Shown: positions 735-33,187, counted from the first letter of the stretch. The stretch: DNA of 43,294 nt from a virus (IMGVR_UViG_2609460053_000008); one strand, 5' to 3'. A program made the numbers and translations. The notes: generated by a model from the letters alone, not told the origin.

Positions 735-1811
735 TCAGAGCAGTAAGTACGTTTTTTCTCTCTCATCAAGATACATTTTTGTTGTCTTCTCCGATGTGTG
801 GCCAAGTAGACGTTGAGCAAATTCTTCCCCACATGTTTCTTTGTACAATCGTCCAGCCAGGCTTCTGATCTCGTGAAAAGTTGGTGGGTTTTCACTGAAC
901 TGGATACCTGTTAATTTTCTGGCTGCGACAAATTTCTTTGTCAGGCCGTCCGGGTGAATGCTGCCGTCAGGGCTGTTTTTTCTAATCCCGGCACTGATTA
1001 GATAATCCCCCCTACTTACCATGCGGCACTGTTCAACTACTGCACCAAGTCGTAAACCAGCGACAGGAAGGCTGAGTGACAGGGGGATAGCAATCATCAT
1101 TCCTGTCTTAATTTGCCTGATGTGGAGACGATCATCATAAATCTCACTGAACCGCATATTTGTTATGTCTTCGCGACGTTGTCCTGTTACAAGGGCTAAG
1201 TCCATAGCTAATGGGAACCATGTCGGAAGTTGATCTGCTGCCTCCCTGATGCAGTTGTATGTCTTTAGTTTCAGCCGTTCTCTTGTAACTACTATTTTCG
1301 GTGCTCTTGTTGGCGTTACTGGATTTTGAGATATACGTCCTTCAACAATGGCCTCGCGGAACATATCAGATAACACAGAACGCATTGATCCTGCCATCGT
1401 GTTTTTCCCTCCTTCAATCCACAAATCAAGAAACTCGGCAATATGGCGAGTGGTTATTTCTGTCAGTAAAACCCCTCCTAATTTTTCTTTTATTGTCTCC
1501 AGTTGATTTACCCGAATTTTATAAGTATTTCTGGACACTTTTCTCCTTATAAGAATCGTTTTGTAACGTTCAATCCAGTCTGCCATAGTAAATGAGTCGA
1601 ACCCTTTTAGTTTTTCAATTAAGGCAGCAGGAGAGTAGTTTTTGTATATATAATGATTTGCTTCAATTGCCTGCGCTACTGCATCTCTTCTTGAAATTTT
1701 ACCTAGTGTAAATTCTTCTTTCGTCAGAGGGTTGCGCCAGTAATATGCTTTGTCCCTCCTTCGATATGTTAAGTTTTTAGGCAAATTGGGATCGTATTTT
1801 TTCCGCTGCAT
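735..1811 (-). CDS. int: Tyrosine site-specific integrase (lambda Int family)
   Basis: 358 aa; N-terminus resembles lambda Int arm-binding region ([21 protein letters not shown]); C-terminal catalytic region with HxLRH-type motif ([12 protein letters not shown]...[13 protein letters not shown]). Confidence 0.9.
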
Positions 1812-2064
1812 GTTTTAACTTCTCCAGTAACGGACTGTCTCTCCCTTGTCGCCCATTAGGCTGATGGTGTGTTATATCGGTATCAACCTTATTTGGGTTG
1901 ATATAGAAAGCTTCCGGAACCACCCTGTAACTCCTCCCGTGTAGTTCAGGTGCAGGATAAATGTTTCCATTCCTTGCCCATCGTCTCAGCGTTGATATTG
2001 ATGGTGGGTTATCCGGATATCTGAGTTTTCCCCACGTTTTGAGTGTCACAAGATTCATTGCCAT
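1777..2064 (-). CDS. xis: Excisionase (Xis-like)
   Basis: 95 aa ORF immediately upstream of and overlapping int; TLRRWARNGNIYPAPEL resembles lambda Xis DNA-binding region. Confidence 0.7.
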   Translation of the reverse strand: MAMNLVTLKTWGKLRYPDNPPSISTLRRWARNGNIYPAPELHGRSYRVVPEAFYINPNKVDTDITHHQPNGRQGRDSPLLEKLKHAAEKIRSQFA

Positions 2065-2164
2065 ACCTCTTACGATATGACCGCCAGTAAATATACAGAA
2101 TACTGGCGGGTGTGGTTGATTTTTAATAATCAGCTATGAAGTTCTAATTTGTATATAATGCAAC

Positions 2165-2353
2165 TCACGAGGACAGAAGTTTCTCGCAATTAAAATTTAT
2201 CAGCTTTACTTTCTGCTCTCTGGACACGCCTGCTTCTTTTTTCCCTGAGAGCATTTTTTCGCATTCTGATTTCGTTAATTTAGATTTTGAATATCTTGTC
2301 CAGTTAGTAGGAGTGCCACCTTCTTTTTCAATAGTGGCAGTTATTTTATACAT
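2165..2353 (-). CDS. Hypothetical small protein (62 aa)
   Basis: ATG preceded by GGAGG at 5 nt spacing; overlaps lar stop by 8 nt; start chosen inside the 86-aa ORF. Confidence 0.4.
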   Translation of the reverse strand: MYKITATIEKEGGTPTNWTRYSKSKLTKSECEKMLSGKKEAGVSREQKVKLINFNCEKLLSS

Positions 2354-2540
2354 GAACACCTCCATTATTATTTCCAGTAGTTCGTTTATTCCATCTTTCG
2401 AGTGCTTCTTTTTCACTTCCACCATAGCCAGTTCGGGATTCGCATCCGTTGCATTTTGCCCGGTAATATCCTGAAATGGCTTTCACCGTTACTGATGGAC
2501 AACCACAAAACGGACATGGTTTGACTTTTTCATACCGCAT
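2346..2540 (-). CDS. ralR: Restriction alleviation protein Lar/RalR-like, zinc-ribbon
   Basis: MRYEKVKPCPFCGCPSVTVKAISGYYRAKCNGCESRTGYGG matches recalled Rac RalR; Cys4 motif. Confidence 0.6.
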   Translation of the reverse strand: MRYEKVKPCPFCGCPSVTVKAISGYYRAKCNGCESRTGYGGSEKEALERWNKRTTGNNNGGVHV

Positions 2541-2603
2541 TGTCTTTTCTCTCATAAAATAAAGTTTTGTTATGGCGGTGAGGCTACACCGCCATAGTAA
2601 ATA

Positions 2604-3656
2604 TCAGGAGCCGATATATTCTGGTTTCATATCTGTCAGTGTCGTTTTATACGCCTCATATAATTCTCCCAGATGTGGTCGTGCAGCATTCAGCGTATTT
2701 TCCAGAGCAATAAATTTTTGTTCTGCTTCTGGATCACCTGATGAAGGCAGGTCATTTATCATCTTCTCAATACGGGCAATAGCATTGAGACGGTGATGAC
2801 GCTGAACCACTTTTCCTTTAAGTTCTGTGTAGAGAGCGCCAAGTGTATTTTTATGATCTTCCACTTCCTGGCGAAGTGCTGTTGTTTCTCCGGTGCTTTG
2901 TGCCTGCTCAATACGTTCACGGAAAGCACTGATCCAGTTTTCCCCGGCATCCTGCTCAATAATTGTTGTTTCACGTTCCGCACGGCAGGCGGATGTGTTT
3001 TTATGTTCCTGAACCGGATTAATGATTTTTTCCTGTGGTTCGTCCAGTTCGTCCCGGGTGTACACTCCAAGAATCACTTCAGGGCAATAAAGGCGCGCCC
3101 AGCGTTTCAGAGCCAGATAGGCAAGCTGCTGGCGAGGATCATCGGCCCATAACGTTGAGTTACGTGTTCTGGCCTGCGCCAGAAGTAACTCCAGTACGCG
3201 TGGCTTGCTCTCTCCGCGTAGTGTTGCCTGGACGCGAACACCGATCCCGTTTTCATCGGCCAGCTTCCAGCCAGGTACACGATATTCTTTCCCCTTGTCG
3301 TTCTTCCTGATTTCAAATTTCCCGATAATTTTTTCCCACGGCCCGAACCAGTCATATTCAATACGCCCGGTTAGCGGCCCACGAGTACTGATTACGGCAT
3401 TAACCAGTTGCGCTTCATATCCGAGCACACCATTCACAACGAAAGTTTTCTGAGCTACTGCGTAAGGGTTCATTTGCCACTGCATCGCCTGCATGGTGAT
3501 GGCCATGCAGTCTGATGGATTTCCCCGGAGGTGTTCCGGTACAGTAGCCATGCCGGAAGCCATTACCTGGGAAAATGTCTGAATTGCAGCCAGGGACTGA
3601 GGGCTGAAAACCGCAACATTAGAGTTAATATTTTCTTGTTGAGTTAATTCGTTCAT
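2604..3656 (-). CDS. Putative single-strand annealing recombinase (RecT-like position, downstream of recE)
   Basis: 350 aa; start sits 12 nt after recE stop in the same operon; family assigned by position only, sequence not confidently matched. Confidence 0.5.
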   Translation of the reverse strand: MNELTQQENINSNVAVFSPQSLAAIQTFSQVMASGMATVPEHLRGNPSDCMAITMQAMQWQMNPYAVAQKTFVVNGVLGYEAQLVNAVISTRGPLTGRIEYDWFGPWEKIIGKFEIRKNDKGKEYRVPGWKLADENGIGVRVQATLRGESKPRVLELLLAQARTRNSTLWADDPRQQLAYLALKRWARLYCPEVILGVYTRDELDEPQEKIINPVQEHKNTSACRAERETTIIEQDAGENWISAFRERIEQAQSTGETTALRQEVEDHKNTLGALYTELKGKVVQRHHRLNAIARIEKMINDLPSSGDPEAEQKFIALENTLNAARPHLGELYEAYKTTLTDMKPEYIGS

Positions 3657-3667
3657 TGTGTCCTTCC

Positions 3668-6600
3668 TCAGATGCTCAGTGCTTCAAGACGACGAAGATC
3701 AAAGTCGTTTAATTCGTCGGTATAACTTTCGGTAATCGGTGCTGGCCAGTTGTTTGTCTCCAGAGCTTCGTTTATCTGTCGTAGTGTCCGGCGATATTCC
3801 TGTCGACCAAGTTCCAGGAGTTCCTGCGAGGCTTCCACGACGGCCACCCAGTGATAGCCAGCATCTTTGTTGACGAAGATCCAGAAAAATTTGTCCAGGT
3901 TTGCCACATCGCAATACATTGCTGCGCTGAGGTGATAATCACGTTCAATAATTTCACGGTGCAGGCGATCTTTCAGTCGTTCCTGTCGCACATAACCGAG
4001 GCTGACTGACTTCACGTCGGCGCAAATGCTTTCGTATGGCAGCCGGATTTCGATATCAGGACGGACCCTGATTTCCAGCCCGGTTTCTTCATCAAACCCG
4101 AAATAGCTGATTTCAGATTTGCGATCCGGGTGGTTGAGTAGCCTTGCTGCATCGGTATTGTTTTGCAGTGCCGCGTGAATATTTTTTGCCTGTTCATACA
4201 TATCCGGACTGATAAACGTTTTCCCGGCGTTTTCTTCTTGCTGGCGTTTTTGCCAGTCCTCCAGCGTCACCAGTTCCGGGCGAATTTTCCGCGCGATTTC
4301 GGTTAATTGCTCTTTTGTGCCACTGATGTTGTAAGGCAAAGATTTAGCACGTTCTTTTTTTGCCAGTTCTGGGTCTACAGCTTCAATTTGATCCAGAAGC
4401 TGCTCCCGTGCTCCACTGGTTTTCAACAGAGGAGGGAGGCTTGCGTTGTATTCTTTAATACAGGCTTTCATTGCTGATGCTGTGTGTTTTTCCCCCTCAG
4501 GAATACGCCGAAATTCCACCGGAAGCGAACCGTAAAGGATGCCTGTTTCTTCGGCCCCAGCACTTATAGACAGTGGCTGTATAAGAGTGCTGTTGTAGCT
4601 TTCGATCCACTCTTTCATCTGCTCTGGTGTCATCAGTGCTGGCAGACTGGCATTGTGTTTTTTAATGATGGCGATCAGTTCGTTAGAAGTAGTAACCACA
4701 TATTCAGGAACCGGTACCGGAATGGCATATTCATCAGCGAATTTATCCGTTTCCAGAACATAGCTGTGAATGATCCGCCCACGCAGCAGTGCATCACTTT
4801 CCTCGTTCGGAATAGTTCCGGCAATGTGCCGCCCGTGGTAATACATCAGGCTGATACGGGCATCCTTCAGCATCGTGCTGCTTATTCCGTTGGCGGAGTG
4901 ATAAACCTCGTTCGGGAGGTTTTCATAGCGGCCAGGCTCGAAATATGATGGCCACATGATTTCAGTTACTACAGGTGCTGTCGCTTCACCAGTTTCATCA
5001 CCGCAATCGCGATGCAGATCGCTGCCAGCATTCTCATTGTGCGGATGTTCAGGGCCTTCCATTTCCTCCGGCTCTTTTTCCTGAGATTCATCCAGATTTT
5101 CTTCATTAAAGGTTTCCTGATACGTTGCGTCGCCCATCACCGCGCCACAGTCAGGACAGTTGCCGCCGCCAGTCTGACCGCAGGCGGTGCAAACTTTCTC
5201 CGTTTCCTGTTGTTGCACTACTGGCTCAGGCTGTTTCGTTTCTGGCTCGTTTTGTTGCGTATTTGGGTCGTTCTGTTCCGTTTCTGGCTGATTCTGGTAC
5301 ACAGAATCGCGGGTCTGGATCCCCTTAACCCATTTCGGATCATTCGGGTCGCTAATCCCTTCAACAAATTCTCCGCGAGAGGCAGCCAGTAATTTGTCTG
5401 CATCGACAGGATTTTTGGGCGGAATGTTTTTCCGGGCTTCATAGAGTTCTGCCCGCAGTTTCTGATATTTCGCATCAACAGAATTTACCTGTGACTGAGC
5501 ATCCAGCGGCTGCGTGTCCTGATGATGTTCAGTTGCATCCGGTTCCACTGTTTCAGCCGTTGCCTGTTCATCTGCCATTGCGCAAGATGGTTGCAGTTTT
5601 TCTTCATCATCCTGTTTTTCTTCTTCTGTTACACGCTGCGGCATCGGGGCAGAGGAACGACCGCAGGCAATATCCACGATTTCTGGATCAGGGTTGGCAT
5701 GATCAGTTTCAGTCAGTACTTTGTTAAGATATTCAGTGACGTGTGCGGGGATAACCTCGATCCCAATTGGTGCTTCTTTTACGGACGCAACCACGATGGC
5801 GCGGGAATAATCCAGCCCGCCAGGCATGGTGATGAATTTGTCGCGGAAAACAGAAAAGGGCGGTTTATTTTCAGCGATAATTTCCTCGACACGTTTAGCG
5901 TGTGCCGGATGAAGGTTATAAATGTCCACGTCCATTGAACGAGCCAGTACGCCAGTCGCTACGTCGCGCGCCAGTGACGTCAGATCGTGAACGAAACCTT
6001 CGCCGCGATCGGTGAGGTTCCCGCCGCCAGCATTAGCGCCGGAAGCCGTGCGCGTGATGCATGAAACACGATTTCCTTTCATCCACTCTTTTGTCAGCAG
6101 ACCGCGATCGGTGTAGTCTGCGTCCAGGTATGCTTCGAAAAAAGCAGTCATCAGCCCCAGGCTTGAATTGCCTGGATTAGGGAAAACTCTGTCAGTATCA
6201 CGCACCAGTTTGTGGAGATCGCGAATTTCCAGCGGGTCGAGCAGGCTGGTTTTGTGGGAAACAGCCAGGGCAGTAACAGCTGGTAGTTCTTCAGCTCGTG
6301 CAATGTGTAATGCCTGTAGTTCGTCGCGTGAAACGTGCGTTACCGGTTTTTCGCTGCCGTGTTGAGCAAGCCAGCGAATGGGCAGCTCCTGACCGGAAAT
6401 CGGGAGTAGCATATTCTCCTCAATCTCCGTCATGTCTTCGCCATTAACATTGGTATTGTCAGTGCTGGCTGGTTTGTCCTGCGCAGAGGATGAGGGCGTG
6501 ATAAATACCATTGTGATGCCATCTTCCCCGCCTTTTTCGTAACGGTTGCAGAATTCCGTATCAAATACGCCTTCTGGTGGAAGGTCATCAACAACGGGCA

Positions 6601-6796
6601 AATTGACGCGAACAGGTTTTTTAAAGTCATCTTCATCGTAGCCAGCATCGTCAATCGCAACAGCACCACGGGAGATGGCAATGGATAATTTTTTCGCTTC
6701 AGCCCAGTAGAAACCGCCTTTAATACCGAGACGTTTTCTTACTTTGTCATTTTTTGCTTCGTAATACAGTGGGTAAACTTGTTTATCGGTGCTCAT
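3668..6796 (-). CDS. recE: Exodeoxyribonuclease VIII (RecE), 1042 aa
   Basis: Long stretches match recalled Rac RecE ([43 protein letters not shown]...); acidic/Q-rich low-complexity linker. Confidence 0.85.
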
Positions 6797-28971: not shown

Positions 28972-30117
28972 ATGGCACAGGGCTTGCCTGTATCAAACGT
29001 TGTTAATGTTGATGTGATCATGTCGCCGCGTGCAGCATCAGGGCGAAATTTTGGTGCATTACTCATTCTCGGCCCGTCCACAATCATTCCGGTAAGTGAG
29101 CGCATTCGCCGTTATTCTGCCGCGGAAGATATTGGAAAAGATTTTGGCGTGGAATCACCAGAATATAAGGCTGCGCAGGTGTTTTTCTCTCAATCACCGA
29201 AACCTCAGGAGGTTTTTGTTGGTCGTTGGGTGAAAACGAAGGGAGACAGCGAACAGGCCACGCCTGAGACGCTGGAGCAGGCTGTGAATGCCATGCTCGA
29301 TTATACTTCATGGTATGGGCTGGGGATTGCAGACGATGCAGATATTCCGGATGCAGACTGGCTGAAAGTGGCTGCGGCGATCGAATCCTCTTCTGTAAGC
29401 CGTATTCTGGCGATTACGACAAGCGATGAGAAATGCCTGCAGACTGCATCCAGCGATGATTTGGCATCAAAACTGAAAACCGCCGGATATTCACGCAGTT
29501 TTATTCAGTATTCATCGGGTAATAAATACGCTGCGTTATCTGCATTTGGCCGGGCATTCACGGTTAATTTCAATGGCAGTAATACCGCGATTACGCTCAA
29601 GTTTAAGCAGGAGCCGGGTGTCGGGTATGAAACACTGACAGTCAGCCAGGCATCGGCACTTGATGCAAAAAACTGCAATGTATTCGTGTACTACCAGAAT
29701 GATACGGCTATCCTCCAGCAGGGAGTGATGGCTAACGGCGATTTCTTTGATGAACGCCACGGCCTGGACTGGTTACAGAATTATGTGCAGACCAACCTCT
29801 ATAACCTGCTTTATACCAGCACCACGAAAGTTCCCCAGACTGAAGCCGGTATTACCCGACTGTTATCAAATGTTGAAAAATCACTGGATCAGGCCGTTCA
29901 GAATGGACTGATTGCTCCGGGCGTATGGAACGGGGGCGACCTTGGTCAGTTGTCATCAGGTGACACACTGCCCAAAGGTTATTACGTATACGCCCAGCCG
30001 CTGGATGAACAGGCACAATCAGAACGTGAAGCCCGTAAGGCTCCGGTGATTCAGGCTGCAATAAAACTTGCAGGCGCGGTTCATTACGCTGACGTACAGA
30101 TTAACGTTGTTCGCTAA
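28972..30117 (+). CDS. Tail sheath protein (putative)
   Basis: 381 aa immediately upstream of a 146-aa tube-like gene, chaperone pair and tape measure. Confidence 0.55.
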
Positions 30118-30127
30118 GGGGAAGTGA

Positions 30128-30568
30128 ATGTCTACCTATTCTTTTATGGATGTCACTGCGACGCTGACCGGGCCGACCGGTTCGATTGACCTCGGGTACG
30201 GTTCGGCAAGTTCTGAAGAGGGGATTGTGGTTGCGATGGGCGGTCCTAAAAACACCATGACCATCGGTGCTGATGGCGAAGTGATGCACAGTCTCCATGC
30301 AGATAAAAGCGGGACGATTACCGTTAACCTTCTGAAGACATCACCGACAAATAAAAAATTGTCGCTGGCGTATAACGCACAGAGCCAGTCTTCTGCCACA
30401 TGGGGGAATAACGTTATCGTGATCCGCAACAAGGTCAGCGGCGACATCATCACGGCACGCAGTGTTGCGTTCCAGAAACAACCGGATAACGCCAACGCTA
30501 AAACCGGTAATACGATGCCGTGGGTGTTTGACTGCGGCAAGATTGACCAGGTTCTCGGGGAGTTTTAA
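30128..30568 (+). CDS. Tail tube protein (putative)
   Basis: 146 aa between sheath and chaperone genes. Confidence 0.5.
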   Translation: MSTYSFMDVTATLTGPTGSIDLGYGSASSEEGIVVAMGGPKNTMTIGADGEVMHSLHADKSGTITVNLLKTSPTNKKLSLAYNAQSQSSATWGNNVIVIRNKVSGDIITARSVAFQKQPDNANAKTGNTMPWVFDCGKIDQVLGEF

Positions 30569-30571
30569 TAC

Positions 30572-31024
30572 ATGGAATTCGAAATCAAAGGCGTGAAATA
30601 TCGCGTGGCAAAACTCAGCGTTTTTGACCAGCTGAAAGTGACCCGCAAACTTCTGCCGGTACTGGCAGGAATGATGTCAGATTTCGGGAGCATTCGCTCC
30701 CGTTTGCCTGCTGACGGCAAAATCGACACCGTGAAATTCGAGCAGTTAAAACCGGTGTTTGAAACCATGCTCCCGCGTATCGCTGAGGAACTGTCTTCCC
30801 TGACCGAAGATGACACCGATGCGATTATTCATCCCTGTCTTGCGGTGGTGTCGCGGCGTCATATGGATGGATGGGTGCCGGTATTTACCCAGGGCGAACT
30901 GATGTTTGATGATATTGACTTGCTGGTCATGCTTCATCTGGTGGCGCGGGTGGTCGCCGATTCGCTGGGAAATTTTTTGCCTACACCCCTTACCAGCACG
31001 ACACAGAGCCTGCAACAGGGCTGA
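30572..31024 (+). CDS. Tail assembly chaperone (zero-frame product)
   Basis: 150 aa upstream of tape measure; slippery heptamer A_AAT_TTT at 30970-30976. Confidence 0.55.
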   Translation: MEFEIKGVKYRVAKLSVFDQLKVTRKLLPVLAGMMSDFGSIRSRLPADGKIDTVKFEQLKPVFETMLPRIAEELSSLTEDDTDAIIHPCLAVVSRRHMDGWVPVFTQGELMFDDIDLLVMLHLVARVVADSLGNFLPTPLTSTTQSLQQG

Positions 31025-31212
31025 CGTTTAACAGCCTGCCGGACGGGCTGTCCTACCTTCTCAATCCGGTTGACGCCGGGTTAATTCCCTATACAGCACT
31101 TAAAGATGGCTCTGTCGATTTGTATGACATTGCTCTCTTGAATGACCATCTGGCGGTAAAAGCGGATAACCAGCGGCGCATTGAGAAATGGAGAGAGGAT
31201 AATGAACGCTGA
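30572..31212 (+). other. Predicted -1 frameshift fusion product of the tail assembly chaperone
   Basis: -1 frame is open from the slippery site to TGA at 31210-31212, overlapping the tape measure start. Confidence 0.5.
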
Positions 31213-33187
31213 AACTATTAAAGATTTCCTCGTCTCGCTTGGCTTCAGTGTGGATGATGCAGGAGCGAAAAAGTTCGGTTCTGTCCTCGCCGGTACAACT
31301 GCAAATGTCATCAAAATGGGGCTGGCTGTTGAAGGAGCTGCGCTGTCCGTGGTGGCCTTCACGGCTAAGATCGCCTCCGGCCTGGATAATCTTTACTGGG
31401 CGTCACAGCGCACCGGTGCGACGGTCCAGGGAATTCAGTCTATTGGCTATGCGGTTTCGCAGGTTGGCGGCAGCGTGGACGCTGCGCGATCTTCTCTGGA
31501 AAGCCTCTCCCGGTTTATTCGTAACAATCCCGGGGCGGAAGGCTTCCTGAATCGCCTTGGTGTACAGACCCGTGACGCCAGCGGCAACATGCGTGACATG
31601 GCCGCTATTTTTACAGGTGTAGGCCAGAAGCTCAGCGGTATGCCGTATTACCGGGCTAACCAGTATGCGCAGATGCTGGGCATTGACGAAAATACCCTGA
31701 TGGCCATGCGTCGTGGTGTGGGGCAGTTCAGCGCTCAGTATTCAGAAATGGTGAAAGCGATCGGATTTAATGCCGATCAGGCTGCCTTATCGTCAAACCG
31801 GTTTATGACCTCGCTGAAATCGCTCGGTGAAATGGCCGGGATGGCGCGGGACAAAATCGGATCGAATCTTGCGGACGGACTGGCGGGGCAGATTGATAAC
31901 CTGCGCAAAAAGATAATTGAAAATTTTCCCAAAATTGAAGTCACCATCACAAAGGTCATAAAGGGGATCCTCTGGCTGGGTGAGATAGTCGGGCGGGTAG
32001 CATTTCGGATAGTCGATGGTGTCGGAGATATCATCGAGTGGTGGGGGAAACTGGATGCCGAAACGAAAACCCTGATAGAGGTTATCGGCGGTCTGGTTGT
32101 CGCCATGCGGATACTTAACTCTACTTTCTGGATGTCACCTATAGGGCTGATTACCGGTCTGATCGTGGCTCTCGGTCTCTTGTGGGAAGACTACAAAACA
32201 TGGAAAGAAGGCGGTAACAGTCTTATCGACTGGGAAAAATGGCAACCGGCAATAGATAAAGCGAAGGATGCGATCACCTGGCTTCGTGATCACCTTCTGG
32301 AACTAAAAGATGGTGTTGGCGGCTGGCAAAATGCACTGGAAATCCTCGGTACATTCATCGCGGGTGTCTGGGTATCCAAGGTTCTGGGGGCTTTCGGGAA
32401 AATATCTGGTTTGCCGGTACCGCCATGGTTAAAAGGCTGGATGGCTTATGCTGCTTATTTGTACTCCGATCGCGAAAATATTGGTGCCAGTGCGAAATCA
32501 TCCTGGGATTACACGAAACAAAATATTGGAGATTCATTGCGCTGGCTTGGCATTGATACCGATTTTGGTCGTAATCCTCATACCGTAAAAGGCGCAAATA
32601 TTCAGTCAGATATTCCAGGTGCTGAGCCGGAACAACATGCACAGGCTACGAAGCGAGGAGAACGGAATAACAATCCGGGAAACCTTAATTTTGCTGGTCA
32701 GGCGGGGGCTTCTCTTGAACGACCGGGCGGGCGATTTGCCAGATTTGAAACTGCTTTTGATGGATTACGGGCTCTTGCTCGTCAGTTAATGCTGTACGCC
32801 GGACGGGGAATAAACAGTGTGGAGAAAATTATCTCTACCTGGGCACCTGCGTCTGATAATAACAACACAACCGCGTATATCAGGGCTGTATCGCAACGAC
32901 TGGGAGTGGATCCCCGGGCTGCCCTGAATATGAGCGATCCGCAAACCATGTCAGCATTGATGAGCAGCATTATCCAGCATGAGAATGGAAGAAATATCTA
33001 TTCTCGAGAGCTGATTAATAAGGCTGCCGTGGCGGGAATTAGTGGCAAAGTGACAGAGGTTAACCAGCAAAATACCTACCACATTTACGGTGGCGGAGAT
33101 CCGCACGCTGTCGGTAATGAGGTTGCACGTCGGCAACAGTCTGCAAATGCTCAGGTCATGCGAAGTAATCAGGTGAGGGTGGGTTAG
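31202..33187 (+). CDS. Tail tape measure protein
   Basis: 662 aa with hydrophobic central segments; GGAGAGAGGA RBS; follows chaperone pair. Confidence 0.8.
   Translation: MNAETIKDFLVSLGFSVDDAGAKKFGSVLAGTTANVIKMGLAVEGAALSVVAFTAKIASGLDNLYWASQRTGATVQGIQSIGYAVSQVGGSVDAARSSLESLSRFIRNNPGAEGFLNRLGVQTRDASGNMRDMAAIFTGVGQKLSGMPYYRANQYAQMLGIDENTLMAMRRGVGQFSAQYSEMVKAIGFNADQAALSSNRFMTSLKSLGEMAGMARDKIGSNLADGLAGQIDNLRKKIIENFPKIEVTITKVIKGILWLGEIVGRVAFRIVDGVGDIIEWWGKLDAETKTLIEVIGGLVVAMRILNSTFWMSPIGLITGLIVALGLLWEDYKTWKEGGNSLIDWEKWQPAIDKAKDAITWLRDHLLELKDGVGGWQNALEILGTFIAGVWVSKVLGAFGKISGLPVPPWLKGWMAYAAYLYSDRENIGASAKSSWDYTKQNIGDSLRWLGIDTDFGRNPHTVKGANIQSDIPGAEPEQHAQATKRGERNNNPGNLNFAGQAGASLERPGGRFARFETAFDGLRALARQLMLYAGRGINSVEKIISTWAPASDNNNTTAYIRAVSQRLGVDPRAALNMSDPQTMSALMSSIIQHENGRNIYSRELINKAAVAGISGKVTEVNQQNTYHIYGGGDPHAVGNEVARRQQSANAQVMRSNQVRVG

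What the first reader, a model, noticed from the sequence alone, without database searches (positions are those of the whole stretch)
30961..31212. Programmed -1 ribosomal frameshift in the tail assembly chaperone gene
The zero frame of the chaperone ends at 31022-31024. The -1 frame stays open from the slippery heptamer A_AAT_TTT (30970-30976, within GGGAAATTTTTTGCC) through 31212, adding about 62 residues and overlapping the tape measure start. This is the conserved G/GT-type arrangement of tailed phages.
Basis: partly seen in the sequence, partly recalled or inferred. Interest (0 to 1): 0.5.

Follow-up and report, generated by a model that had tools for sequence, protein, structure and literature searches.

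The report
Tail chaperone G/GT ribosomal frameshift
An E. coli prophage makes a short and a long form of its tail assembly chaperone by letting a few ribosomes slip back one base on a conserved AAATTTTTTG stretch; this is the ordinary phage G/GT arrangement, but RefSeq does not annotate it here.

Summary

- **Genes:** ORF 30572-31024 is a tail assembly chaperone (Pfam Phage_TAC_15, PHROG 1688). It lies between the tube gene and the tape measure gene of a contractile-tail prophage.
- **The -1 frame:** it is open from 30919 to 31212 and encodes Pfam DUF6889 (E=1e-20). It has no conserved start codon of its own.
- **Conservation:** across 86 distinct homologous loci (26-100% protein identity), all but two clearly degraded copies keep a -1 extension of 55-75 codons. 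85 of 86 keep NNT_TTT at the conserved Phe135 codon.
- **Synonymous sites:** they are frozen at GGA AAT TTT TTG. TTT is used 78/78 times, against about 43% at other conserved Phe codons.
- **Slip site:** The overlapping T_TTT_TTG (30973-30979, the P2 E/E' heptamer) is just as conserved. The shared element is tRNA-Phe slipping on T_TTT.
- **Stimulator:** there is no conserved downstream RNA structure. An upstream SD-like GGGTGGTC is only a candidate.
- **Products:** G is 150 aa and GT is 213 aa.
- **Precedent:** homologues in phages Mulock and Magia already carry this frameshift annotation. RefSeq splits the locus into two genes.

This is an ordinary, new member of a known kind.

The parts
28972..30117 (+). 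Tail sheath gene (381 aa)
   Evidence: Pfam DUF3383 E=5e-101. The same family is listed as E217_gp31_N. SEN34's homologue is annotated as tail sheath.
30128..30568 (+). Tail tube gene (146 aa)
   Evidence: Pfam KPP10_Orf10 / DUF3277 E=9e-61. Listed as Phage_Tube_PhiTE.
30572..31024 (+). Zero-frame tail assembly chaperone 'G' (150 aa, 16.8 kDa)
   Evidence: Pfam Phage_TAC_15 E=7e-31. PHROG 1688 'tail assembly chaperone' E=6e-65. RefSeq names it 'phage tail assembly chaperone'.
30948..30955 (+). SD-like element GGGTGGTC. It is a candidate upstream stimulator and is unproven.
   Evidence: This is the strongest anti-SD complementarity anywhere in the gene: -12.2 kcal/mol against -5.2 for synonymous shuffles, P about 0.007. 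It uses the rare CGG codon at R126 in 45/67 sequences. It is not significant in other clades, and it lies 11/14/17 nt from the three heptamers.
30967..30979 (+). Slip cassette GGGAAATTTTTTG. The universal core is T_TTT at 30973-30976.
   Evidence: T6 is invariant in 78/78 distinct close homologues. Codon counts are GGA 70/77, AAT 70/70, TTT 78/78 and TTG 67/67. NNT_TTT is present in 85/86 loci including distant phages.
30976..31212 (+). -1 frame segment read after the shift ('T' part, stop TGA 31210-31212). The frame itself is open from 30919.
   Evidence: The extension is 58-65 codons in 66 of 68 full genome loci, against mostly single-digit lengths (median about 8, occasionally up to 59) in the +1 frame. 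No start codon is conserved upstream of the domain.
31087..31203 (+). DUF6889 domain, the conserved C-terminal module of GT
   Evidence: Pfam DUF6889 E=1.2e-20, residues 40-78 of the translation of 30970-31212. PHROG 4364 E=2e-23.
31202..33187 (+). Tape measure protein gene. Its ribosome binding site and ATG lie inside the last codons of the -1 ORF.
   Evidence: PHROG 2276 'tail length tape measure protein' E=2e-265. The RefSeq start corresponds to 31202.

Best explanation
This is a programmed -1 ribosomal frameshift of the lambda G/GT (P2 E/E+E') type, in the tail assembly chaperone gene of a temperate E. coli prophage with a contractile tail.

Most ribosomes read 30572-31024 and make G (150 aa). 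A minority slip back one base while tRNA-Phe sits on the TTT codon at 30974-30976 and re-pairs with TTT at 30973-30975. The neighbouring tRNA re-pairs as well: Asn AAT to AAA on A_AAT_TTT, or Leu TTG to TTT on T_TTT_TTG. Those ribosomes continue in the -1 frame to 31212 and make GT (213 aa, 24.0 kDa). GT is the G core, a short linker predicted with low confidence, and the DUF6889 domain.

By analogy with lambda, G and the G part of GT coat the tape measure protein. The T (DUF6889) part would recruit the tube protein so that the tube polymerises to the length the tape measure sets. Neither protein would end up in the virion.

Shown here: the ORF architecture, the family assignments, and the conservation of the slip site and of the -1 ORF. 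Inferred: that slippage occurs, its rate, and the binding partners.
For: **Position and family.**
- G lies between the tube and tape measure genes.
- G belongs to Phage_TAC_15 and PHROG 1688.
- The -1 product is Pfam DUF6889, E=1e-20.

**No independent translation.**
- The -1 ORF has no conserved ATG, GTG or TTG before the domain. In many loci the first candidate start is at residue 55 or later, and L146 has none.
- RefSeq has to use a CTG start at 31048.

**Conservation of the -1 ORF.**
- 66 of 68 full loci from different species keep a 58-65 codon -1 extension. The +1 frame extends by mostly single-digit lengths (median about 8, occasionally up to 59).
- Eight phages with 26-39% identity keep extensions of 55-75 codons with the same domain.

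**Conservation of the slip site.**
- T6 is invariant in 78/78 sequences.
- Phe135 is TTT 78/78, against 34/77 and 31/74 at other conserved Phe codons.
- Leu136 is TTG 67/67. Gly133 is GGA 70/77, against about 10% elsewhere.
- In L121, L146 and L153 a -1-frame stop directly abuts the T run, which confines the shift to it.

**Precedents.**
- Mulock and Magia homologues carry joined 'frameshift product' CDS features. The Magia paper states that a frameshift was identified (PMC7883833).
- P2 E/E+E' shifts on TTTTTTG without a downstream structure (PMC3091744).
- UUY codons in the A site are shift-prone in E. coli (PMC4066793).
- A distant relative, L161, has T7 followed 5 nt later by a hairpin of -32 kcal/mol, z=-4.3.
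Against: - There is no protein or ribosome-profiling evidence for GT in this or any homologous phage.
- No conserved downstream stimulatory structure was found: mean z is -0.16 over 47 diverse loci, and RNAalifold predicts 0 pairs. Efficiency may therefore be low. The same is true of lambda and P2.
- The exact slip register is unresolved.
- The DUF6889 function is inferred only by analogy.
- The AlphaFold model was too poor to test the fold (mean pLDDT 48).
Confidence: 0.9

Rival explanations
1. The DUF6889 ORF is an independent small gene translated from its own start, as RefSeq and GenBank annotate it ('DUF6889 family protein' or 'NTP pyrophosphohydrolase').
For: PGAP and several phage records annotate a separate 46-63 aa CDS.
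Against: - The annotated start in the exact-match genome is a CTG at 31048 (sequence).
- In the window the first ATG, GTG or TTG in the -1 ORF is TTG at 31120, inside the domain.
- Across 78 loci no start codon is conserved upstream of the domain, and L146 has none at all.
- The -1 codon that overlaps the G stop is CTG, CTA, TTA or ATA, so termination-reinitiation has no conserved start either.
- The -1 frame also stays open, with conserved peptide sequence (FFARTPRQRD…), across the roughly 20 codons between the slip site and the domain. An independent gene would not need that.
Confidence: 0.04
2. GT arises by transcriptional slippage: RNA polymerase adds one U on the T6 run and gives a sub-population of mRNAs with G and T in one frame.
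For: - An invariant homopolymer run is the conserved element.
- Public assemblies contain T7 and T4-type variants that fuse G and T in frame, which shows the run is indel-prone at some level.
Against: - Six T's is shorter than the runs of about 8-9 or more that are known to give appreciable slippage by E. coli RNA polymerase (my own knowledge, not tested here).
- Distant relatives have only T4 in a phased heptamer (CCCTTTTAT, AAATTTTAT). That suits ribosomal tandem slippage but not polymerase slippage.
- The phase of the run relative to the zero frame is strictly conserved in 85/86 loci.
- L161 has a hairpin at the classical 5-nt spacing for ribosomal frameshifting.
Confidence: 0.05
3. The open -1 frame and the heptamers are coincidental or a decayed remnant, and only G is made.
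For: - A few other -1 runs of 88-113 codons occur in the window's genes.
- Two loci have a damaged -1 ORF: L123 is truncated and L136 is fused to downstream sequence.
Against: - The -1 product matches a Pfam domain at E=1e-20.
- Its protein sequence is conserved down to 26% identity of G.
- Synonymous sites of the slip cassette are frozen.
Confidence: 0.01

Closest known systems
Phage lambda gpG / gpGT (Levin 1993; Xu, Hendrix and Duda 2004, 2013, 2014, as reviewed in PMC5009743)
   Same: - Two overlapping ORFs lie between the major tail/tube gene and the tape measure gene.
- There is a low-level -1 shift near the 3' end of G.
- The long form adds a C-terminal domain.
- The window's cassette begins with G_GGA_AAT, one base different from lambda's G_GGA_AAG (lambda's heptamer is quoted from my own knowledge).
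   Different: - No detectable sequence homology to lambda G or T; the Pfam families differ.
- The tail is contractile, with a sheath.
- The conserved core of the slip site is the T run and Phe codon, not the Lys AAG codon.
Phage P2 E / E+E' (Christie 2002, cited in PMC3091744)
   Same: - Contractile-tail phage.
- -1 shift on TTTTTTG.
- No downstream secondary structure.
- The site is conserved among relatives that are only 49-59% identical.
   Different: - A different chaperone family: the Pfam scan of G returns only Phage_TAC_15.
- P2 E is 91 aa and E+E' 142 aa, against 150 and 213 aa here.
- Here two further phased heptamers overlap the T run.
Klebsiella phage Mulock CPT_Mulock_014/015 and Burkholderia phage Magia CPT_Magia_015/016 ('tape measure chaperone frameshift product')
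   Same: - True homologues: 58% and 26% protein identity to G, with the same DUF6889-type extension.
- Mulock has the identical GGGAAATTTTTTG.
   Different: - Magia uses C_CCT_TTT at the same Phe codon.
- These records are computational annotations only.
- The Mulock paper does not mention the frameshift. The Magia paper gives it one sentence.
TAC-N / TAC-NC of Pakpunavirus and Vandenendeviridae phages (phage Adele paper, PMC12846349)
   Same: - Related tail module: the window's tube protein is Pfam KPP10_Orf10, and KPP10 is a Pakpunavirus to my knowledge (not checked here).
- The paper proposes a -1 frameshift on a conserved GTTTTT motif at the 3' end of the short form.
- The downstream ORF is routinely mis-annotated as a separate hypothetical gene.
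   Different: Homology between those chaperones and this one was not tested here. Those are virulent Pseudomonas phages.

Membership tests
G/GT-type tail assembly chaperone frameshift (Xu et al. 2004) | The gene pair lies between the major tail (tube) gene and the tape measure gene | tested here: met
   Tube 30128-30568, G 30572-31024, tape measure 31202-33187.
G/GT-type tail assembly chaperone frameshift (Xu et al. 2004) | A second ORF overlaps the 3' end of the first in the -1 frame and has no translation start of its own | tested here: met
   The -1 frame is open 30919-31212. No ATG, GTG or TTG occurs before the conserved domain in the window, and none is conserved in 78 loci.
G/GT-type tail assembly chaperone frameshift (Xu et al. 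2004) | A phased slippery sequence lies in the overlap and is conserved among homologues | tested here: met
   T_TTT_TTN is present in 78/78 close loci, NNT_TTT in 85/86 overall, and synonymous sites are frozen.
G/GT-type tail assembly chaperone frameshift (Xu et al. 2004) | The first ORF is a tail assembly chaperone by homology | tested here: met
   Pfam Phage_TAC_15 E=7e-31 and PHROG 1688 E=6e-65. The fold could not be confirmed (pLDDT 48), and no sequence relative has a solved structure.
G/GT-type tail assembly chaperone frameshift (Xu et al. 2004) | Both the short and the long protein are made at a fixed ratio, and both are needed for tail assembly | not testable with these tools
   Needs western blot or mass spectrometry, and genetics.
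G/GT-type tail assembly chaperone frameshift (Xu et al. 2004) | The G part binds the tape measure and the T part binds the tube protein | not testable with these tools
   Inferred from lambda (PMC5009743). No interaction data or complex prediction is available.
P2 gpE / E+E' protein family | Sequence homology to P2 gpE | tested here: not met
   The Pfam scan at E<=0.01 returns only Phage_TAC_15 for G and only DUF6889 for the extension. The shared TTTTTTG is a mechanistic resemblance, not family membership.
SD-stimulated -1 frameshift (dnaX / IS911 type) | A conserved SD-like sequence lies 6-17 nt upstream of the motif (criterion of PMC4066793) | tested here: inconclusive
   GGGTGGTC at 30948-30955 pairs with the 16S 3' end at -12.2 kcal/mol and lies 11/14/17 nt from the three heptamers. 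It beats synonymous shuffles in the VARVVAD clade (P about 0.007) but not in other clades (P 0.3-0.7). It pairs with the GAUCACC part of the anti-SD, so the effective spacing is longer than in dnaX.
Stem-loop or pseudoknot stimulated -1 frameshift | A conserved structure lies 5-9 nt downstream of the heptamer | tested here: not met
   The window gives z=-0.5 and +0.8. Mean z is -0.16 over 47 loci. RNAalifold predicts 0 pairs. Only the distant L161 has such a hairpin.
Transcriptional slippage recoding | A homopolymer run long enough for polymerase slippage (about 8-9 or more) | tested here: not met
   The run is T6 here and only T4 in distant homologues. The length threshold comes from my own knowledge.

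The most novel reading that the evidence does not exclude
The 13-nt cassette GGGAAATTTTTTG, fixed at every synonymous site, may be a stimulator-free multi-register slip site. Three consecutive phased heptamers, possibly helped by the upstream GGGTGGTC anti-SD match, would let ribosomes shift at successive codons. That would give an unusually high GT:G ratio or two GT isoforms (…NFF… and …NFL…). Under this reading, clades that lost the AAA would compensate with a GGAG(G) 12-13 nt upstream of the T run.
Probability: 0.15. Interest if true: 0.35.

Novelty: new member of a known kind. Interest (0 to 1): 0.2.

Why it matters
The main value is in annotation.
- The prophage family is found in 316 of 5426 complete E. 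coli genomes, and in the 15 records listed there the locus is split into a chaperone gene and a separate 'DUF6889 family protein' gene.
- Elsewhere the small ORF is named 'NTP pyrophosphohydrolase'.
- Recognising the frameshift assigns DUF6889 / PHROG 4364 as the T domain of the chaperone of DUF3383/DUF3277 (E217/KPP10-like) contractile tails, and removes a spurious enzyme name.

The comparative set is also a clean natural example of how a slip site drifts (A_AAT_TTT, T_TTT_TTN, C_CCT_TTT) while the pivot Phe codon stays fixed. It does not change any concept of phage biology.

Tried and rejected
- **Downstream stimulatory structure.** I folded the window and 47 diverse homologues, and ran RNAalifold on 46 of them. 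Nothing is conserved.
- **Structure prediction of GT.** I used the in-frame variant P0001 with a 44-row alignment. Mean pLDDT was 48 and pTM 0.28, with only the DUF6889 part near 70. That is too poor for a fold search, so none was run.
- **Solved structures.** A sequence search found no relative.
- **NCBIfam.** No model matches either part.
- **First viral-contig scan.** It returned only near-identical prophages (94-100% identity) and added no diversity. The genome-contig scan with a profile gave the useful set.
- **Christie 2002 (PMC135442).** The paper is not held, so P2 facts are taken second-hand from PMC3091744.
- **Literature search.** Searches for DUF6889 and for DUF3383/DUF3277 with 'frameshift' found nothing specific.
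- **T_TTT_TTG as the sole slip site.** I rejected that after distant relatives (Acinetobacter, Burkholderia phages) turned out to lack the T6 run but keep X_XXT_TTT.
- **Termination-reinitiation at the G stop.** Rejected, because the overlapping -1 codon is not a conserved start.

Full report
**What is in the sequence**

The ORF at 30572-31024 encodes a 150-aa protein. In its frame the codons around the finding are GGA AAT TTT TTG (30968-30979).

The -1 frame has a TGA at 30916-30918 and then stays open to the TGA at 31210-31212. That is 97 codons, 62 of them beyond the zero-frame stop.

The tape measure ATG is at 31202, so the -1 ORF overlaps it by 11 nt. The tape measure ribosome binding site lies inside the last codons of the -1 ORF.

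The 13-mer GGGAAATTTTTTG contains three overlapping phased heptamers: G_GGA_AAT, A_AAT_TTT and T_TTT_TTG.

**Is it more than chance?**

- In the window's own genes the -1 frame has a stop every 13.8 codons, so P(97 open codons) is about 7e-4.
- Phased heptamers occur at 0.15 per 35 codons.
- Other -1 runs of 88-113 codons exist in the window, so this alone is not decisive.
- The decisive point is that the -1 product matches Pfam DUF6889 at E=1.2e-20 and PHROG 4364 at E=2e-23.

**Context**

The window is a complete temperate prophage. It carries integrase, RecT, an exonuclease VIII-like (RecE-type) protein, terminase, portal, capsid and baseplate J genes.

The tail module is:
- sheath, DUF3383 (28972-30117)
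- tube, KPP10_Orf10 / DUF3277 (30128-30568)
- chaperone, Phage_TAC_15 / PHROG 1688 (30572-31024)
- tape measure, PHROG 2276 (31202-33187)
- Dit-like protein, Pam3_gp18-like plug and a weak E217_gp41-like hub match (E=1e-4, below Pfam's cut-off)

The tube-to-tape-measure segment (30128-31400) matches E. coli FDAARGOS_1289 at 100% and is found in 316 of 5426 complete E. coli genomes. It is 98.5% identical to Escherichia phages vB_EcoM-606R2 and relatives.

RefSeq annotates 'phage tail assembly chaperone' plus a separate 54-aa 'DUF6889 family protein'. The start of the latter corresponds to the CTG at 31048.

**Comparative evidence**

I collected three sets of homologues:
- ten divergent phage or prophage loci
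- 69 loci from one genome per species, covering Enterobacterales, a Chryseobacterium isolate and a Prolixibacteraceae MAG, with 28-84% identity to G
- eight distant phages of Bordetella, Edwardsiella, Burkholderia, Ralstonia, Acinetobacter and others, with 26-39% identity

*The -1 ORF is conserved.* Of the 68 full-length genome loci, 66 keep a -1 extension of 58-65 codons past the G stop. The +1 frame extends by mostly single-digit lengths (median about 8, occasionally up to 59). The exceptions are L123, which is truncated, and L136, which is fused into downstream sequence; both look like degraded prophages. The eight distant phages keep 55-75 codons with the same motif, LPGGEDWLLRPV…YESL.DG.L.LADIALMND.

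*It has no start of its own.* No ATG, GTG or TTG is conserved upstream of that domain. In the SEN34-like clade the first is at residue 55 of the -1 segment, and L146 has none.

*It is never a stand-alone gene.* A database search with the T part alone found only 28 short fragments of 43-108 aa, named 'DUF6889 family protein' or 'NTP pyrophosphohydrolase'.

**The slip site**

In 78 distinct close homologues the T6 run is invariant and always in the same phase. Codon usage at conserved residues shows nucleotide-level selection:

| Residue | Codon at slip site | Same codon at other conserved positions |
|---|---|---|
| Phe135 | TTT 78/78 | 34/77 and 31/74 |
| Leu136 | TTG 67/67 | minor Leu codon elsewhere |
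| Asn134 | AAT 70/70 | no conserved Asn to compare |
| Gly133 | GGA 70/77 | about 10% |

Which heptamer is used? The evidence splits.

- Nine close loci lack AAA (for example GGC AGT TTT TTG, GGT GAT TTT TTG, GGT AGT TTT TTT) and retain only T_TTT_TTN. In L121, L146 and L153 a -1-frame stop (TAG, TAA, TGA) directly abuts the T run, so nothing upstream of it can serve.
- The distant phages lack the T6 run and retain X_XXT_TTT. Acinetobacter A785.1 has A_AAT_TTT, Magia, BgManors32 and WC36-2 have C_CCT_TTT, and the Ralstonia phage has G_GGT_TTT.
- Burkholderia phage E192a and Edwardsiella phage ZHS retain only the tetramer T_TTT.

Tabulated over 86 distinct sequences (with L161 read by eye):
- 70 have both heptamers
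- 9 have only the register with Phe in the P site
- 4 have only the register with Phe in the A site
- 2 have only T_TTT
- 1 (Bordetella) has G_GGA_AAT and T_TTC instead

The universal element is therefore the Phe codon TTT preceded by T, window 30973-30976.

Published E. coli measurements say that UUY in the A site is shift-prone and that cognate A-site re-pairing matters most (PMC4066793). That favours A_AAT_TTT. P2 E/E+E' uses TTTTTTG (PMC3091744), which favours the other register. The two registers predict different junction residues, NFF and NFL.

**Stimulators**

*Downstream.* Nothing is conserved. The window gives z=-0.5 and +0.8. Mean z is -0.16 across 47 loci. RNAalifold predicts no pair. 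This matches lambda and P2. Only the Prolixibacteraceae relative L161 has a strong hairpin (-32.3 kcal/mol, z=-4.3) starting 5 nt after its T7.

*Upstream.*
- The strongest anti-SD complementarity in the whole gene lies at GGGTGGTC (30948-30955, -12.2 kcal/mol).
- It is more negative than synonymous shuffles in the VARVVAD clade (P about 0.007).
- It uses the rare CGG codon at Arg126 in 45/67 sequences, against 0-10% at other conserved Arg positions.
- It is not significant in other clades.
- Its spacing (11, 14 and 17 nt) and its pairing register make a dnaX-like role uncertain.

I record it as a candidate only.

**Precedent**

- Klebsiella phage Mulock has 58% protein identity and the identical 13-mer. 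It carries a joined CDS named 'tape measure chaperone frameshift product'.
- Burkholderia phage Magia has 26% identity and carries the same kind of feature. Its paper states that a programmed frameshift was identified (PMC7883833).
- The Mulock paper does not mention the frameshift.
- A 2025 paper argues for a conserved -1 frameshift on GTTTTT in the chaperones of Pakpunavirus-type phages. It notes the same habit of annotating the downstream ORF as a separate gene (PMC12846349).

**Rivals**

- *Independent initiation* is contradicted by the lack of any conserved start and by conservation of the linker between slip site and domain.
- *Termination-reinitiation* has no conserved start at the G stop.
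- *Transcriptional slippage* is unlikely for T6, and impossible to reconcile with the T4 heptamers of distant relatives and with strict phase conservation.
- *Chance* is excluded by the domain match and the conservation.

**Mechanism**

Shown:
- the ORF architecture
- the family assignments
- a slip cassette under purifying selection at synonymous sites
- a -1 ORF that can only be expressed as a fusion

Inferred, mainly from lambda as reviewed in PMC5009743:
- that a few percent of ribosomes shift (the review gives a G:GT ratio of about 30:1 for lambda and 2-3 fold higher efficiency in P2-like phages)
- that G and the G part of GT coat the tape measure
- that DUF6889 recruits the tube protein
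- that neither protein is in the virion

**Verdict**

The finding is real and correctly interpreted. It is an ordinary instance of a well-known phage recoding event, already annotated in two homologous phages but missing from RefSeq for this widespread E. coli prophage. Interest is low.

Noticed in passing
window 31048-31212; proteins P0122-P0148: The -1 ORF fragment is annotated in public records as a separate gene named 'DUF6889 family protein', with a CTG start in RefSeq, or 'NTP pyrophosphohydrolase'. The enzyme name appears to be a propagated error for what is the C-terminal part of the chaperone fusion.
   Followed up: partly
L094 1897-1910 (Logan SRR23924998); proteins P0001, P0149 (E. 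coli ISC7, CDL28562.1), P0153, P0156: About ten public assemblies encode G and T in one frame. The T run is T7 in the one contig read (gggaaatttttttg, junction NFF). In others the protein lacks one residue at the junction (NF-AY, 212 aa), consistent with a two-base shorter run. These are probably homopolymer sequencing errors or defective prophages. They show that the run is an indel hot spot.
   Followed up: partly
L161 1548-1625 (Prolixibacteraceae MAG contig CALOCY010000001.1): In the most distant genome relative (28% identity), a T_TTT_TTT heptamer is followed after 5 nt by a long hairpin (-32.3 kcal/mol, z=-4.3). This is the classical stimulator that the enterobacterial members lack.
   Followed up: partly
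window 30948-30955: GGGTGGTC is the strongest match to the 16S rRNA 3' end in the whole chaperone gene. It is maintained by a rare CGG Arg codon and by GTG Val in the VARVVAD clade. Clades without the AAA heptamer often have GGAG(G) 12-13 nt before the T run. This is a possible upstream stimulator and is not proven.
   Followed up: partly
L123 1515-1692 and L136 1512-2331: Two species' copies have a damaged -1 ORF. In Enterobacter sp. R1(2018) it is truncated after 22 codons. In Izhakiella australiensis it runs on for 241 codons into unrelated downstream sequence. Both are presumably decaying prophages.
   Followed up: no
window 31189-31212: The tape measure gene's ribosome binding site (GGAGAGAGGA) and ATG lie inside the last nine codons of the -1 ORF (…EKWREDNER*). 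Part of the conservation of the T C-terminus may therefore serve tape measure translation.
   Followed up: no
window 31202-33187: The C-terminal half of the tape measure protein matches endolysin and transglycosylase PHROGs, and RefSeq names some copies 'lytic transglycosylase'. The tape measure therefore probably carries a cell-wall-degrading domain.
   Followed up: no
40 phage records: Every tblastn alignment of G against phage genomes, from 98.5% down to 26% identity, stops at query residue 134-135, which is exactly the slip-site Phe. The 15-residue zero-frame tail after the slip site is not conserved at the protein level.
   Followed up: no
window 735-6796 (- strand): The left end of the window carries a lambda-type integrase (735-1811), a RecT gene (2604-3656) and a 1042-aa exonuclease VIII-like (RecE-type) gene (3668-6796). 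The window therefore spans most of a lambdoid-style temperate prophage with an E217/KPP10-type contractile tail.
   Followed up: no
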